Origin: Promethearchaeia archaeon
GTDB lineage: Archaea > Asgardarchaeota > Lokiarchaeia > Sigyniarchaeales > SOKP01
Assembly (NCBI GenBank): GCA_029856045.1
Contig: JAHQWG010000028.1
Location: 64,001 to 128,000, forward strand
Direction: 5' to 3'
Length of the DNA: 64,000 nucleotides
The notes beneath the pieces were generated by a model. The model was given only the letters and a program-made list of their open reading frames with translations, was not told where the DNA came from and searched no databases. Numbering within the stretch: position 1 is the first letter of the stretch; each line of letters opens with the position of its first letter. Shown here piece after piece: positions 51,178-55,645 of the stretch. The position numbers and the translations under genes were made by a program.

Positions 51178-52377
51178 ATGAGATTGAAATTAACATCAGA
51201 AGAAAAAGAGATGTTGGAAGGTAAGCAAGGAAGATCTGCTCAAAAATCCATGGAGATATTAACCACATTAGGTGAAATATTTGATGCAGAATGTATGATT
51301 GAGGTTTATAGCGTGCAAATAGCAGGAGTTTCCTATGCAAATTTAGGGGAAGCAGGTCTAGAATTTTTAAATGAGATGGCAGAAGATGGAAAGGTTAGGG
51401 TTTTAACAACTTTAAATCCAGCTGGAATGGACCGAGAAAATTGGCAAGCTTTAGGAATTGAAGAAGAATTTGCTATTAATCAAAACCGTGCTATAGATGC
51501 TTTTGCAAAAATGGGTATAATTACAACATGTTCTTGTACACCATATTTAATAGGAAATGTACCTCACTTTGGTCAGCATATTGCTTGGGCTGAGAGTAGT
51601 GCTGTCTGCTATTCAAATTCTGTCATTGGTGCTCGAACAAATCGTGAAGGTGGTCCGAGTGCGCTAGCTGCTGCTTTAACTGGAAAAACACCAAAATATG
51701 GTTATCATCTAGACAAAAATCGTCATGGACAGGTCTTATTTGAAGTTAAGGTTCCAGTGAAAGGTACAGATGAATTTGGCGTGTTAGGAAAAATAATTGG
51801 GGATAAATTGGTTGAATTAGGAAAGAAAATACCTTATATTACTGGAATTTCTTCAGCAACAGTTGAGGAACTTAAGTCATTTTGCGCTTCAGTGGCTACT
51901 TATGGAGGTACAGCATTATTTCATATGGAAGGCATAACCCCAGAATATAATATGTATCCTAAGCCAAAAGATGATATTTTTGAAATTAATCAGGATAACC
52001 TTAATAAAACTCGGTCTGATCTTATTGATGATGATATTGAAATTGATTTCGTTAGTATTGGGTGTCCTCACGCTTCAATTCACGAAATAGCAACAATTGC
52101 AAGTTTATTGAAAGGTAATAAAGTAAATAAAGAATTTTGGATTACTACTGCTCGACCTACAAAAAGAATTGCAGATGAAGCTGGCTATTCTAAAATTATT
52201 GAGGATGCTGGGGCCAAATTCGCTTCAGATACATGTTGTGTTGTAGCTCCTATTAAAGGTCGCTTTAAAGGAATTATGGTAGATTCAGCTAAAGCGTGTT
52301 ATTATGGCCGTGCAAAGAATAAATTTAAAGTAAAAATTGGCTCAATCGAAAAATGTGTTGAGGAGGCGGTAAAATGA
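51178..52377 (+). CDS. Aconitase X catalytic subunit, probable phosphomevalonate dehydratase large subunit
   Basis: GVSY, TTLNPAG, CSCTPY, WAESSA, GARTNREG, IGCPH, DTCCVVAP, SAKACYY; preceded by GGAG. Confidence 0.9.
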   Translation: MRLKLTSEEKEMLEGKQGRSAQKSMEILTTLGEIFDAECMIEVYSVQIAGVSYANLGEAGLEFLNEMAEDGKVRVLTTLNPAGMDRENWQALGIEEEFAINQNRAIDAFAKMGIITTCSCTPYLIGNVPHFGQHIAWAESSAVCYSNSVIGARTNREGGPSALAAALTGKTPKYGYHLDKNRHGQVLFEVKVPVKGTDEFGVLGKIIGDKLVELGKKIPYITGISSATVEELKSFCASVATYGGTALFHMEGITPEYNMYPKPKDDIFEINQDNLNKTRSDLIDDDIEIDFVSIGCPHASIHEIATIASLLKGNKVNKEFWITTARPTKRIADEAGYSKIIEDAGAKFASDTCCVVAPIKGRFKGIMVDSAKACYYGRAKNKFKVKIGSIEKCVEEAVK

Positions 52378-52763
52378 AGTTAGAAGGAAGAAAAATTTAT
52401 AAAGGAACTGCTGAGGCAGAAGCAATTGTAACAAAAGATGGTATTTCATTTTATGGTGGCGTTGACCCTGATACTGGTAAAGTTGTCGAGGTTGGACATG
52501 AACTTGAAGGTCAATCCATAACAGGAAAAGTTTTAGTCTTTCCTACTGGTAAGGGTTCAACTGTAGGGTCATACACAATGTATAGAATGAAAAAAAAAAA
52601 TACGGCACCAGTAGCAATCGTAAACAAACAAATAGATACAATCGTAGCAGTAGGTTGCATAATTAGTGAAATTCCTTGTGTAGATAAAATTAATATTAAT
52701 AATATTAAAACCGGACAAAAAGTTATTGTTAATGGTTCCGAAGGTACTGTGGAGGTGAAATAA
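52374..52763 (+). CDS. Aconitase X swivel subunit, probable phosphomevalonate dehydratase small subunit
   Basis: ISFYGGVDP.TG, HEL.GQSI.GKVLVFP..KGSTVGSY; overlaps the upstream stop; AGGAGG upstream. Confidence 0.9.
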   Translation: MKLEGRKIYKGTAEAEAIVTKDGISFYGGVDPDTGKVVEVGHELEGQSITGKVLVFPTGKGSTVGSYTMYRMKKKNTAPVAIVNKQIDTIVAVGCIISEIPCVDKININNIKTGQKVIVNGSEGTVEVK

Positions 52764-53730
52764 ACGGGAACTGGAAAAGGATATGGAAAGACCATCCTTT
52801 TTGGCGAAATTTTTTTCCCACTTCGGGGATAAACGCAATCATTTTGTGGTTTATGGTCTTCCCGCAATCGCATCGGCGTTAGGCGCTAATACAATCGCAG
52901 AAGTTAAAGTTGTTGAGGGACAAGGGTGGACTGTTGTCGATCAGAGACCCGCTACGACCGGCTATAAAAAAAAGAAATATGATGAAGGAATGCAATCAAT
53001 TAAAAATGTAATCAAGCATTTAAAAATAGATACAGAGAGTCAAAAACTTGGAATAACTTTTGCTGGAGATTTAATTGCTGCGAGTGGAGTTGGTGCTTCA
53101 GCGGCTCAATGTACATCACTAGCTCGGGCTTTAAACGACAGCTTTAATCTAAATTTAGACGATGAAAAGATAAATGAAGCTGCGTATGAAGGAGAGAAAG
53201 CATATCACGGAACCCCATCTGGTATTGACAACACAGCTTCAACTTATGGAGGATTGATTTGGTTTGTGAAAAACTTGAATGGTGGGAAAAATACTATGGA
53301 CCTCTTGCAATCACCAATAAAAATGCCATTAATAATCGCTAATTCAGGAATAACTGCTTCTACGATAGAAGTAGTTGCTGATGTTCGGCGTTTAAAAGAT
53401 AAAAATCCTAATAAATTTGAGAAAATTTTTAAGGAATATAAAGAAATAGCAGATAAAGCAAAAATGGCCTTACTTGAAGGAAATATTATTTCTTTAGGTA
53501 ATTTAATGAATCAAAACCACAAATTACTCCAAGAAATTACGGTTTCAGGAGAAATAAATGATAAATTAGTTCAAATAGCGTTAAAAAATGGAGCGATTGG
53601 TGCTAAAATGACAGGAACCGGGCGTGGTGGTTTAGTAATTGCTTTAGCTGAAAATAAAGAAATACAAGAAAAAATAGCCAAGGCAATCGAAAAAGGGGGT
53701 TATGATGCCTGGAAAACCATAATTGGATGA
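52764..53730 (+). CDS. mvk: Mevalonate kinase, split gene: exon 1 52764-52808, exon 2 52840-53730 (311 aa after joining); ACG start
   Basis: The joined product reads (M)GTGKGYGKTILFGE|HFVVYGLPAIA, followed by GVGASAA, HGTPSGIDN, LMNQNH and GAKMTGTGRGG GHMP motifs. Confidence 0.85.
52809..52839 (+). other. Candidate 31-nt bulge-helix-bulge (BHB/BHL) intron in mvk mRNA
   Basis: Insert ATTTTTTTCCCACTTCGGGGATAAACGCAAT lies between GAA and CAT. Helix GGCG/CGCA is flanked by 3-nt bulges AA^A and AT^C; cutting after the second bulge base restores GEH. Confidence 0.75.
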
Positions 53731-53742
53731 GATTGATTTAAA

Positions 53743-54552
53743 TTGAATAACAATAATGAAATTTATCTATTGAAGTTAGGTGGAAGTTTATTAACTGATA
53801 AAAATAGACCCTTTTCTATTAGGAAAAATGTTGTTAAAAGCGCAGTTCAACAAATTATAGATGCTAATGAAAAATTAATATTAATTCATGGAGGAGGTTC
53901 GTTTGGCCATCCTCTTGCAAAAAAATACAACCTTTCAAAAGGAATAGATGCATCGATTCAAAATCAAATTCTTGGACTTACTGAAACTCACCAATCAATG
54001 AACAAATTCAATTCCTATTTAATTAATCAATTTTTAGAAAAAAAATATCCTGTATTATCAATTCAAGCTTCCAGCATTTTCATCAAAGATTCTCAAAATA
54101 TCTCAACTCAATCGATTAATGTTATTGAAACCGCCTTAGATCTTGATATTTTACCTATTTTGTATGGAGATATAATCCTTGATTCAAAGGGGTCATTCTC
54201 AATTATTTCTGGGGACCAAATCATCGTTGAATTATGTGAAAAAATTAAAAAGTATAATATCTTTAAAGTTATTTTCGCTATTGAAAAAGATGGATTATTC
54301 ATTAAAGAAAGAGTTAATAGCAAATTGAATATAAAACTGGCGAGAGAATTAAAATTCGAAGATTTAGATATAATTGAAATCGCTGATTTAGAAAGTAAAA
54401 TTGATGTAACAGGCGGAATTAAAGGTAAAATTAATAAAATCAAACAAATTTGTCAACAAAATATTCCCGTTCAAATAATAAATGGTTTAAAAGATGAATT
54501 TATACTTAAAGCATTAAAAAATCAAAATATTATTTCAACCAAAATAAAATGA
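53743..54552 (+). CDS. ipk: Isopentenyl phosphate kinase
   Basis: LKLGGSLLTDK, HGGGSFGH, GD, ISGD, DVTGGI.GK. Confidence 0.92.
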   Translation: MNNNNEIYLLKLGGSLLTDKNRPFSIRKNVVKSAVQQIIDANEKLILIHGGGSFGHPLAKKYNLSKGIDASIQNQILGLTETHQSMNKFNSYLINQFLEKKYPVLSIQASSIFIKDSQNISTQSINVIETALDLDILPILYGDIILDSKGSFSIISGDQIIVELCEKIKKYNIFKVIFAIEKDGLFIKERVNSKLNIKLARELKFEDLDIIEIADLESKIDVTGGIKGKINKIKQICQQNIPVQIINGLKDEFILKALKNQNIISTKIK

Positions 54553-54562
54553 GCAAAGAATT

Positions 54563-55645
54563 ATGAATGAAAATGATATAAATAAGAGAAAACTGGATCA
54601 TCTAAAAATCCCAATTGAGGAGGATGTTCAACATTCTGAAAATTACTTCAAATATATTAAATTAATGCATCATTCTCTCCCTGAGGTAAATTTTGAAGAT
54701 ATCGATTTAACTACAAAATTTTTTGATAAACAAATATCGGCACCTATTTGTATTGCGGCTATAACTGGCGGACATGAAATTTCTAAAGAAATCAATAGGA
54801 TTCTTGCTACAGCCGCAGAATCAGAGAAAATCATAATGGGAGTGGGTAGTCAACGTGCTGGATTAGAAGATCTATCAACAGAGAACTCCTTTAAAGTGGT
54901 TCGAGAAGTTGCGCCTAATATTCCACTAATTGGAAATATTGGTATAGGGCAAATAAGTGAGAAAAATTTCAAAATTGAAAATTTTAAAAAATGCATTGAT
55001 ATGATTAACGCTAACGTAATGGCAATACATTTCAATGCTTTACATGAATTAGTTCAGGATAATGGGAATATCTCATATAATCTTTTCCGTTCAAATTTTC
55101 AAAAAATAAGAGAAAATATTAAGATTCCAATAATAGCAAAAGAAGTTGGAACTGGAATTAGTAAAGAAATGGCTTTAACACTTGAAAATCTCGGATTTGA
55201 TGGATTTGATGTAGGGGGTTCAGGTGGAACAAGTTTTGCTGCAATTGAATCAAAGCGAAAGAGTTATGTCGTTGAAAAATATTCACGTAACCCAGCAGAT
55301 CTTTTTAAAGATTGGGGAATACCAACTCCTGTAAGTATAATTAATGTAAGGAAAGTTTCAAATAAATTTATTATTGCGACCGGTGGACTTAGAAATGGAG
55401 TTGATATTGCTAAATCCATTATTTTAGGTGCTGATATTGGCGGATTTGCTTATAATTTCCTAGTATCTGCGTGGAAAGATTATCAAAATGATACTATTAG
55501 CAATACCATAAAGGAAATTAGAACTTTAAAGCATGAGATACGCTCTTGTCTATGGTTAATGAATTTAAAGAATATAAATGAATTAAAGAATAGTTCTAAT
55601 AAAAGAGTTATTCTTGGTATATTATATGAGTGGTTAAATCAATAA
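54563..55645 (+). CDS. fni: Type 2 isopentenyl-diphosphate delta-isomerase
   Basis: RKLDH, ITGG, GVGSQR, HFNALHE, KEVGTG, GGTSF, WGIPT, TGGLRNG.D.AK. Confidence 0.95.
   Translation: MNENDINKRKLDHLKIPIEEDVQHSENYFKYIKLMHHSLPEVNFEDIDLTTKFFDKQISAPICIAAITGGHEISKEINRILATAAESEKIIMGVGSQRAGLEDLSTENSFKVVREVAPNIPLIGNIGIGQISEKNFKIENFKKCIDMINANVMAIHFNALHELVQDNGNISYNLFRSNFQKIRENIKIPIIAKEVGTGISKEMALTLENLGFDGFDVGGSGGTSFAAIESKRKSYVVEKYSRNPADLFKDWGIPTPVSIINVRKVSNKFIIATGGLRNGVDIAKSIILGADIGGFAYNFLVSAWKDYQNDTISNTIKEIRTLKHEIRSCLWLMNLKNINELKNSSNKRVILGILYEWLNQ

What the first reader, a model, noticed from the sequence alone, without database searches (positions are those of the whole stretch)
52788..52860. Candidate bulge-helix-bulge intron in a protein-coding gene (mevalonate kinase)
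Seen: a 31-nt insert (52809-52839) splits the conserved GKxILFGE|HxVVYG motif, shifts the frame and adds a stop. The RNA can form a central helix GGCG 52803-06 / CGCA 52834-37 (three G-C pairs plus one G-A mismatch), with a 5' bulge AAA 52807-09 and a 3' bulge AUC 52838-40. The intron stem pairs UUUUUUUCC 52810-18 with GGGGAUAAA 52825-33 (one U-U, two G-U). Exon-exon pairing is possible via ACCAU/GUGGU or the perfect 8-bp AAGACCAU 52788-95 / AUGGUCUU 52853-60. Established: archaeal splicing endonuclease cuts after the second base of each 3-nt bulge, which gives 52808|52809 and 52839|52840. These are exactly the junctions that protein conservation independently requires (GAA+CAT). Archaeal mRNA introns of this type are known from very few genes, such as crenarchaeal cbf5. 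Inference: EndA/RtcB-type mRNA splicing gates a key lipid-synthesis enzyme in a probable Asgard archaeon, which bears on intron origins and on IRE1/HAC1-like splicing. Caveats: the exon-side helix next to the bulge is weak (relaxed BHL-like), and the ACG start keeps pseudogenisation possible.
Basis: partly seen in the sequence, partly recalled or inferred. Interest (0 to 1): 0.95.

Follow-up and report, generated by a model that had tools for sequence, protein, structure and literature searches.

The report
tRNA-type mini-intron in Asgard mevalonate kinase
The only mevalonate kinase gene of this Loki-type Asgard archaeon is split inside its active-site motif by a 31-base hairpin shaped like an archaeal tRNA intron, so the mRNA almost certainly has to be cut and rejoined before this lipid-pathway enzyme can be made; the papers I could search report this for only one other archaeal protein gene (cbf5).

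Summary
A 31-nt insert (52809-52839) separates GKTILFGE from HFVVYG, shifts the frame and carries a TAA. It is real DNA: the junction region is identical in five independent assemblies.

Among 73 distinct related mvk loci, 29 carry a 30/31-nt insert at exactly this site and 44 lack it cleanly. A covariance model finds one copy in 56 of 135 genomes of the family. The intron hairpin and the exon-intron helix covary, including GGC/CGC to GGU/CAC.

Synonymous exon sites are frozen only where the insert is present: Gly GGC 28/29 vs 5/33, Phe TTT 29/29 vs 13/33, and a perfect 8-bp exon-exon helix 24/29 vs 1/33.

The genome has one mvk under purifying selection. It has two EndA paralogues, of which the alpha-like one carries the broad-specificity loop, and one RtcB. 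A textbook BHB intron sits in another of its protein genes.

Best reading: an EndA/RtcB-spliced relaxed BHB mRNA intron (confidence 0.87). No RNA evidence could be obtained here.

Seen here, and not mentioned in the scan notes I retrieved: within the genus, intron-present and intron-absent states lie on a ~0.7-kb recombinant tract. The ACG start recurs in nine species.

This scan had already found the same mvk intron in other genomes.

The parts
52751..52758 (+). Shine-Dalgarno-like GGAGGTGA, 5 nt upstream of the mvk start position, inside the end of the upstream AcnX small-subunit gene
   Evidence: Read directly. The same motif precedes ATG/GTG starts in orthologues.
52764..52808 (+). mvk exon 1: 15 codons, TGTGKGYGKTILFGE. 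The first codon is ACG, directly after the upstream gene's TAA.
   Evidence: Orthologues have ATG, GTG or TTG at the same codon. ACG is found in 9 species.
52809..52839 (+). 31-nt intron. It shifts the frame by +1 and holds TAA (52830-52832) in the exon-1 frame.
   Evidence: A 30/31-nt insert sits at the same junction in 29 of 73 distinct loci. Model R1 scores it 62.3 bits, and it is the only strong hit in the genome.
52840..53730 (+). mvk exon 2: 296 codons plus the stop, starting HFVVYG
   Evidence: TIGR00549, 209.5 bits. dN/dS against relatives is 0.08-0.30.
52803..52806 (+). 5' strand of the central helix (GGCG: Gly codon plus the first base of Glu). It pairs with 52834-52837.
   Evidence: G-C/C-G/G-C kept in 27-29 of 29, one compensatory change to U-A (L083) and two G-U. 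The Gly codon is GGC in 28/29 intron-bearing genes against 5/33 intron-less ones.
52834..52837 (+). 3' strand of the central helix (CGCA, intronic)
52807..52809 (+). 5' splice-site bulge AAA. Predicted cut at 52808|52809.
   Evidence: Sequence, together with the BHB rule that the cut falls between the 2nd and 3rd bulge base (PMC2738675). The junction is required by the GE|H motif and by the intron-less alleles.
52838..52840 (+). 3' splice-site bulge/loop AUC. Predicted cut at 52839|52840. Only one flanking exon pair (U52802:A52841) follows, so this side is a loop (BHL-like).
   Evidence: Phe codon TTT (U52802) is found in 29/29 intron-bearing genes against 13/33 intron-less ones.
52810..52833 (+). 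Intron hairpin: 52810-18 pairs with 52825-33, loop 52819-24
   Evidence: 5 of the 9 pairs change on both sides across 29 sequences
52788..52795 (+). 5' strand of the distal exon-exon helix AAGACCAU. It pairs with 52853-52860.
   Evidence: all 8 pairs are present in 24/29 intron-bearing genes against 1/33 intron-less genes of the same clade
52853..52860 (+). 3' strand of the distal exon-exon helix AUGGUCUU
52340..53040 (+). Approximate recombinant tract around the intron. It is 80-82% identical to the three intron-less genomes of the same genus, inside flanks that are 94-97% identical.
51178..52763 (+). Upstream operon genes: AcnX-type (phosphomevalonate dehydratase-like) large subunit 51178-52377 and small subunit 52374-52763
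   Evidence: PF01989 AcnX_swivel
53743..55645 (+). Downstream operon genes: isopentenyl phosphate kinase 53743-54552 and type 2 IPP isomerase 54563-55645

Best explanation
The 31-nt insert is an archaeal endonuclease-type (bulge-helix-bulge family) intron in the mvk pre-mRNA.

**Proposed fold and reaction (inferred)**
1. The transcript folds so that exon bases GGCG pair with intron bases CGCA. This is the 3-4-bp central helix.
2. The helix is flanked on the 5' strand by the 3-nt bulge AA|A and by a 9-bp intron hairpin.
3. On the 3' strand it is flanked by AU|C in a looser loop. An 8-bp exon-exon helix closes the whole motif.
4. The host's EndA, encoded as two paralogues whose alpha-like member carries the Crenarchaea-type specificity loop, cuts after the second base of each bulge.
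5. RtcB joins the exons as ...GGC GAA|CAT TTT.... This restores GKTILFGEHFVVYG and a 311-codon mevalonate kinase. The intron is released, probably as a small circle.

**What happens without splicing (shown from the sequence)**
The exon-1 frame stops at TAA inside the insert. The only other open frame (ATG 52783, the 315-aa form found in databases) lacks the GK..LFGE motif.

**Shown versus inferred**
- Shown: the DNA anatomy, orthologous conservation, covariation, exon constraint, presence of the enzymes, single-copy status and purifying selection.
- Inferred: actual cleavage and ligation, the enzymes responsible, and any regulatory role.
For: 1. Exactly 30/31 nt are inserted at GE|H in 29 of 73 distinct loci and cleanly absent in 44. 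The R1 model finds one copy per genome in 56 of 135 genomes of the family.
2. Structure: 89.6% of cells are paired against 36-45% when slid. Six pairs have compensatory changes, including exon GGC to GGU matched by intron CGC to CAC. None of 500 shuffles reached the observed pairing or covariation score. RNAalifold on 7 sequences predicts the same fold on its own, and it is already the minimum-energy fold in many relatives.
3. Exon synonymous sites are frozen only when the insert is present: GGC 28/29 vs 5/33, TTT 29/29 vs 13/33, full 8-bp exon helix 24/29 vs 1/33.
4. The two 30-nt (in-frame) variants still carry in-frame stops, and several inserts end in TAG in the exon-2 frame. Neither frameshifting nor the alternative ATG therefore gives a general solution.
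5. There is one mvk in a genome estimated 100% complete. The other GHMP kinases score below the cut-off, and the nearest has the galactokinase GEHxDY motif. dN/dS is 0.08-0.30.
6. EndA alpha has the Y/H/K residues, and its KPR loop aligns to the A. pernix catalytic subunit 3p1z_B. There is also a beta-like paralogue and RtcB. PMC5829648 reports the (alpha-beta)2 type with the L1 loop for Asgard archaea and ties that loop to cleavage of relaxed motifs.
7. The same genome holds a textbook hBHBh' intron in a B12-binding mutase gene.
8. The junction DNA is identical in five independent assemblies.
Against:
- The motif is relaxed. In this genome the central helix has only 3 Watson-Crick pairs plus a G/A mismatch. 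The 3' site has a single flanking exon pair. The BHB conformer lies 3.4 kcal/mol above the minimum-energy fold.
- On all 29 sequences RNAalifold prefers an alternative exon-exon pairing, GCGAA/UUUGU. It shows no covariation.
- Exon 1 has no ATG, GTG or TTG start.
- Kin are not independent, so the contrast between intron-bearing and intron-less genes overstates the number of independent events.
Confidence: 0.87

Rival explanations
1. Translational recoding. The ribosome bypasses the 31 nt (a hop, as in phage T4 gene 60) or shifts frame within it, and the RNA is never cut.
For: A hairpin with an in-frame stop lies just after the take-off region, as in gene 60. The T7 run 52810-52816 could be slippery.
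Against: - No landing codon matches GAA at the 3' end of the insert (CGCAAU|CAU, and variable in relatives).
- Frameshifting would add 10 residues between the invariant E and H. It also cannot rescue the 30-nt variants, which carry in-frame TAA.
- The exon GGC/intron CGC covariation and the frozen exon-exon helix fit a BHB substrate, not a bypass signal.
Confidence: 0.03
2. The gene is a broken or decaying copy (pseudogene), or the real protein starts at ATG 52783 and simply lacks the N-terminal motif.
For: Exon 1 has no canonical start. Gene callers annotate the 315-aa ORF from ATG 52783.
Against: - mvk is single-copy in a complete mevalonate operon.
- dN/dS is 0.08-0.30.
- The exon-1 peptide is kept intact out of frame in 29 species, and the insert's structure is conserved across five genera.
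- The exon-2 frame is closed by TAG at the insert's end in some species.
- ACG also occurs in intact intron-less orthologues.
Confidence: 0.03
3. The insert is removed from the RNA, but by machinery other than EndA/RtcB (an unknown nuclease and ligase, or a self-cleaving element).
For: The 3' site is not a canonical bulge and the central helix is imperfect in this genome. Nothing here tests which enzyme acts.
Against: - 31 nt is far too small for group I or II introns, and no Rfam family matches.
- The geometry (3-nt bulge, 4-bp spacing, cut after the second bulge base) is exactly that of EndA substrates, and it gives the junction the protein requires.
- Relaxed motifs are the known substrates of the loop-bearing heterotetrameric EndA (PMC5829648, PMC2738675).
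Confidence: 0.05

Closest known systems
cbf5 (pseudouridine synthase) pre-mRNA intron of Crenarchaeota (Watanabe 2002; Yoshinari 2006; Yokobori 2009, PMC2738675)
   Same: [quoted passage not shown]
- The exon-intron borders lie in an often relaxed BHB motif, cut between the 2nd and 3rd bulge bases.
- The host has a hetero-oligomeric EndA with relaxed specificity.
- Its phylogenetic distribution is patchy, explained by one gain and secondary losses.
   Different: - The gene differs (mevalonate kinase, isoprenoid lipid pathway), and so does the lineage (Lokiarchaeia-type Asgard rather than Crenarchaeota).
- The 3' splice site lies in a loop closed by a distant 8-bp exon-exon helix.
- For cbf5, splicing was shown by cDNA and in vitro cleavage. 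Here it is only inferred.
- In this genus the intron state sits on a recombinant tract.
Non-canonical archaeal tRNA introns with HBh'/BHL motifs (Marck and Grosjean 2003; PMC5829648; Asgard tRNA census, bioRxiv 10.64898/2026.10.13.758758)
   Same: - Size class (about 30 nt) and an internal hairpin abutting the central helix.
- A 3-nt bulge and a 4-bp spacing rule.
- Dependence on a broad-specificity EndA and on RtcB.
   Different: - The host RNA is an mRNA, so the exon half of the motif has to be written in codons.
- No sequence relative of the mvk intron was found elsewhere in this genome.
IRE1-dependent HAC1/XBP1 mRNA splicing in eukaryotes
   Same: Protein-only endonuclease cuts at two stem-loops in an mRNA, ligation by tRNA ligase or RtcB, and a frame change on splicing.
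   Different: The nuclease is unrelated (IRE1 kinase/RNase). HAC1/XBP1 splicing is a regulated stress switch. Nothing here shows regulation, so this is an analogy only.

Membership tests
Archaeal EndA-dependent (BHB-type) intron | [quoted passage not shown] | tested here: met
   Met in the relaxed form only. The 5' bulge AAA, the 3+1-bp central helix and the 9-bp intron helix are clear. The 3' site AUC is followed by a single exon pair and then an internal loop closed by an 8-bp exon helix. In 11 of 29 relatives the fourth central pair is G-U.
Archaeal EndA-dependent (BHB-type) intron | Cuts after the 2nd base of each bulge give a functional mature RNA | tested here: met
   Cuts at 52808|52809 and 52839|52840 join GAA to CAT and restore GKTILFGEHFVVYG. 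Intron-less orthologues have exactly this junction.
Archaeal EndA-dependent (BHB-type) intron | Motif helices maintained by compensatory change across orthologues | tested here: met
   6 pairs change on both sides, 0/500 shuffles reach the observed score, and slid controls give 36-45% paired against 89.6%.
Archaeal EndA-dependent (BHB-type) intron | Host encodes the splicing endonuclease (a broad-specificity type for relaxed motifs) and RtcB ligase | tested here: met
   Two PF01974 paralogues are present. The alpha-like one aligns with the A. pernix catalytic subunit, including the KPR loop and the Y/H/K residues. There is one RtcB. That the two paralogues assemble as a heterotetramer is inferred.
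Archaeal EndA-dependent (BHB-type) intron | Spliced RNA and excised (circular) intron observed; cleavage by EndA in vitro | not testable with these tools
No look-up by sequence gave a spliced form.
Programmed translational bypass (T4 gene 60 type) | Matching take-off and landing codons flanking the coding gap | tested here: not met
   The take-off codon GAA has no GAA/GAG landing site at the 3' end of the insert in this genome or its relatives.
Self-splicing group I / group II intron | Catalytic RNA core of hundreds of nucleotides | tested here: not met
   The insert is 31 nt and has no Rfam match at E<=1.
Mevalonate kinase (TIGR00549) | Score above the curated cut-off; N-terminal GK.ILFGEH.VVYG motif | tested here: met
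   The score is 209.5 bits against a cut-off of 163.05, even without exon 1. The motif is complete only after the 31 nt are removed.

The most novel reading that the evidence does not exclude
Lokiarchaeia-type Asgard archaea splice several messenger RNAs with the tRNA-splicing enzymes. In this genome that means at least mvk and a B12-mutase subunit, plus dnaG and ychF according to earlier unchecked scan notes. In these genes the exon codons co-evolve with the intron to keep the cleavage motif. Intron-bearing alleles also spread or vanish by homologous recombination between lineages. If splicing efficiency is limiting, it would act as a post-transcriptional gate on membrane-lipid precursor supply.
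Probability: 0.35. Interest if true: 0.85.

Novelty: new member of a known kind. Interest (0 to 1): 0.74.

Why it matters
In the papers I could search, endonuclease-type splicing inside an archaeal coding sequence is documented only for cbf5 in Crenarchaeota (PMC2738675; PMC5829648, refs 22-24).

Here an essential, single-copy lipid-pathway gene in the archaeal group closest to eukaryotes depends on it. The dependence is kept in 56 of 135 species-level genomes of one family.

- It shows codons being selected for RNA structure: the Gly, Phe, Lys-Thr-Ile and Tyr-Gly-Leu codons are frozen only when the intron is present.
- It explains a systematic annotation error. Public records give a 315-aa 'MERP...' protein that lacks the active-site motif.
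- It offers a tractable case for how protein-gene introns are gained, kept and lost in the lineage nearest to eukaryotes, including loss or gain by allele replacement.

Tried and rejected
- **Spliced forms by protein look-up.** The cluster for this species has five members, all 315 aa and intron-bearing. The 311-aa members of neighbouring clusters differ from the 315-aa members at several residues, so they are intron-less strains and not transcripts.
- **Exact spliced-junction search.** A 34-nt junction pattern gave 0 hits in JGI metagenome contigs. This is uninformative.
- **Paralogous introns.** The core model R1 finds only mvk in this genome. The next hits, at 19 bits or less, are bare AT-rich hairpins without a central helix and without tRNA genes nearby.
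- **My own genome-wide scan** (relaxed BHB plus ORF joining) gave as many hits as its slid-partner controls (about 18,000 each). It has no discriminating power and was abandoned.
- **RNAalifold on 29 sequences** returned an alternative GCGAA/UUUGU exon pairing without covariation. I rejected it in favour of the covarying fold.
- **Direction of the recombination event** in the genus could not be resolved. Both tract haplotypes are 80-85% identical to the nearest sampled lineages.

Full report
**1. What is there**

The window is AT-rich (about 29% G+C). Positions 51178-55645 hold a co-oriented mevalonate-pathway operon:
- AcnX-type dehydratase large and small subunits
- mevalonate kinase
- isopentenyl phosphate kinase
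- type 2 IPP isomerase

Directly after the small subunit's TAA (52761-63), the frame from 52764 reads TGTGKGYGKTILFGE up to 52808. After 31 further bases, the frame from CAT 52840 reads HFVVYGLPAIA... for 296 codons. This part alone passes the curated mevalonate kinase model.

Read in the exon-1 frame, the insert reaches TAA at 52830-32.

**2. The insert is real DNA and the gene is the only mvk**

- The 121-nt junction region, including TAA-ACG and the insert, is identical in five contigs assembled independently from five samples.
- The genome (3.34 Mb, estimated 100% complete) has a single mvk.
- The two other GHMP kinases score below every curated cut-off. The closer one carries the galactokinase-type GEHxDY motif.
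- Exon 2 is under purifying selection, with dN/dS 0.08-0.30 against twelve relatives.

**3. Comparative anatomy**

Relatives are MAGs named Promethearchaeota or Promethearchaeia, that is Loki-type Asgard archaea.

- Of 73 distinct mvk loci, 29 have a 30- or 31-nt insert exactly between the Glu and His codons. The other 44 have GAA/GAG directly followed by CAT/CAC.
- A covariance model of the core motif finds exactly one copy in 56 of 135 species-level genomes of the family, spread over 5 of 13 genera. Within its own genus it is found only in this genome.
- On a quick protein tree, all intron-bearers fall in one well-supported clade whose deepest branches carry the insert. Thor-, Hermod- and Hod-labelled outgroups lack it. 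This fits one gain followed by several losses: 12 changes at minimum, of which 5 are forced by well-supported branches.

**4. RNA structure**

RNAalifold on seven sequences independently returns the following fold:
- an exon-exon helix
- an internal loop
- a 3-bp central helix between exon GCG and intron CGC
- a 3-nt 5' bulge
- a 9-bp intron hairpin

Counted on 29 sequences, the named structure has 89.6% of cells paired, against 36-45% for slid partners. Six pairs change on both sides, and none of 500 shuffles reached the observed pairing or covariation score.

The most telling case is L083. There the synonymous exon change GGC to GGT is matched by the intron change CGC to CAC.

The motif is relaxed (HBh'/BHL-like). 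The 3' cut site is followed by only one exon pair (U52802:A52841), then a loop closed by the 8-bp helix AAGACCAU/AUGGUCUU. In this genome the BHB conformer lies 3.4 kcal/mol above the minimum-energy fold. In many relatives it is the minimum-energy fold itself.

**5. Exon codons are constrained only when the intron is present**

Within the intron-containing clade:

| Feature | Intron-bearing genes | Intron-less genes |
|---|---|---|
| Gly codon GGC | 28/29 | 5/33 |
| Phe codon TTT | 29/29 | 13/33 |
| All eight exon-exon pairs present | 24/29 | 1/33 |

Kin are not independent, so these are not probabilities. The direction is nevertheless what a structure-dependent splicing signal predicts, and what a pseudogene or a translational trick does not predict.

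**6. Rivals**

- **Frameshifting** would insert ten residues between the invariant E and H. It cannot rescue the two 30-nt variants, which carry in-frame TAA.
- **Bypassing** needs matching take-off and landing codons, and these are absent.
- **The database ORF from ATG 52783** (315 aa, 'MERPSFLAK...') is exon 1 read out of frame. In some species that frame is closed by TAG at the insert's end.
- **A self-splicing or otherwise known RNA element:** no Rfam family matches.

**7. Machinery**

- The genome encodes two EndA paralogues. One aligns end to end with the catalytic subunit of the Aeropyrum pernix enzyme, including the KPR loop and the Tyr/His/Lys residues. The other is divergent and beta-like.
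- It also encodes one RtcB.
- PMC5829648 reports the (alpha-beta)2 type with the L1 loop throughout Asgard and TACK archaea, and links that loop to cleavage of relaxed motifs.
- A second protein gene of this genome, a B12-binding mutase subunit, carries a 32-nt insert in its DxHxxG motif with a textbook hBHBh' fold.

**8. Points specific to this genome**

*(a) Recombinant tract.* Against the three intron-less genomes of the same genus:
- The flanks are 94-97% identical.
- A tract of about 0.7 kb (window ~52340-53040), centred on the intron site, is only 80-82% identical.
- The three intron-less genomes are 95-97.5% identical to one another across that tract.
- Trees of the 5' and 3' parts of the gene disagree.

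So in this genus the intron state changed by homologous recombination with a divergent allele, not by in-place deletion or insertion. The direction is unresolved.

*(b) ACG start.* ACG at the start position, behind GGAGGTGA, recurs in nine species, among them intron-less intact genes. This points to a near-cognate start rather than to decay.

**9. What is missing**

No RNA data could be obtained. Splicing, the enzymes involved and any regulatory role therefore remain inferences.

**10. Literature and earlier notes**

In the library I could search, coding-region BHB introns are published only for cbf5. A 2026 preprint covers Asgard tRNA introns but not mRNA introns.

Earlier agents of this scan reported the same mvk intron in other genomes, and reported dnaG, ychF and mutase introns in this genome. 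I re-derived the mvk evidence independently and checked the mutase case by sequence. The dnaG and ychF notes were not checked.

Noticed in passing
window 52761-52766 (and L007, L035, L041, L046-L048, L050, L055): The mvk start position is ACG, directly after the upstream gene's stop and 5 nt behind GGAGGTGA. This holds in nine species-level genomes, while orthologues have ATG, GTG or TTG at that codon. It is a likely near-cognate (ACG) initiation or a termination-reinitiation site.
   Followed up: partly
window ~52340-53040 versus L004, L005, L006: A mosaic tract of about 0.7 kb is 80-82% identical to same-genus genomes inside flanks that are 94-97% identical. It carries the intron-present versus intron-absent difference and an 18-nt intergenic indel. 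This is a signature of homologous recombination with a divergent allele.
   Followed up: partly
G000:C32:5684-5715 (+) = L120:1470-1501: A 32-nt insert with an in-frame TAA splits KPGID|GHWRG (the DxHxxG B12-binding motif) of a mutase small-subunit gene. The fold is a textbook hBHBh': exon helix GCCCG/CGGGC, central helix GCAU/AUGU, bulges AGA and UUA, and a 10-bp intron hairpin.
   Followed up: partly
window 52783-53730: Public protein records give the intron-bearing mvk as a 315-aa protein starting MERPSFLAK... or similar. This is exon 1 read out of frame and then through the intron. In other species 293/294-aa truncated calls occur. It is a systematic annotation error.
   Followed up: yes
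L002:643-1758 (G000:C36:282418-283533): A 371-aa GHMP kinase with GRICLFGEHQDY (galactokinase-type motif) scores below all NCBIfam cut-offs. It is conserved across the family, and its substrate is unknown.
   Followed up: partly
record titles of L060, L061, L064, L065, L067, L069, L078: Several MAGs that carry this Lokiarchaeia-type mvk operon are labelled Bathyarchaeota, Nitrosopumilales or even Nanopelagicaceae in their records. This probably reflects mislabelled or mis-binned contigs.
   Followed up: no
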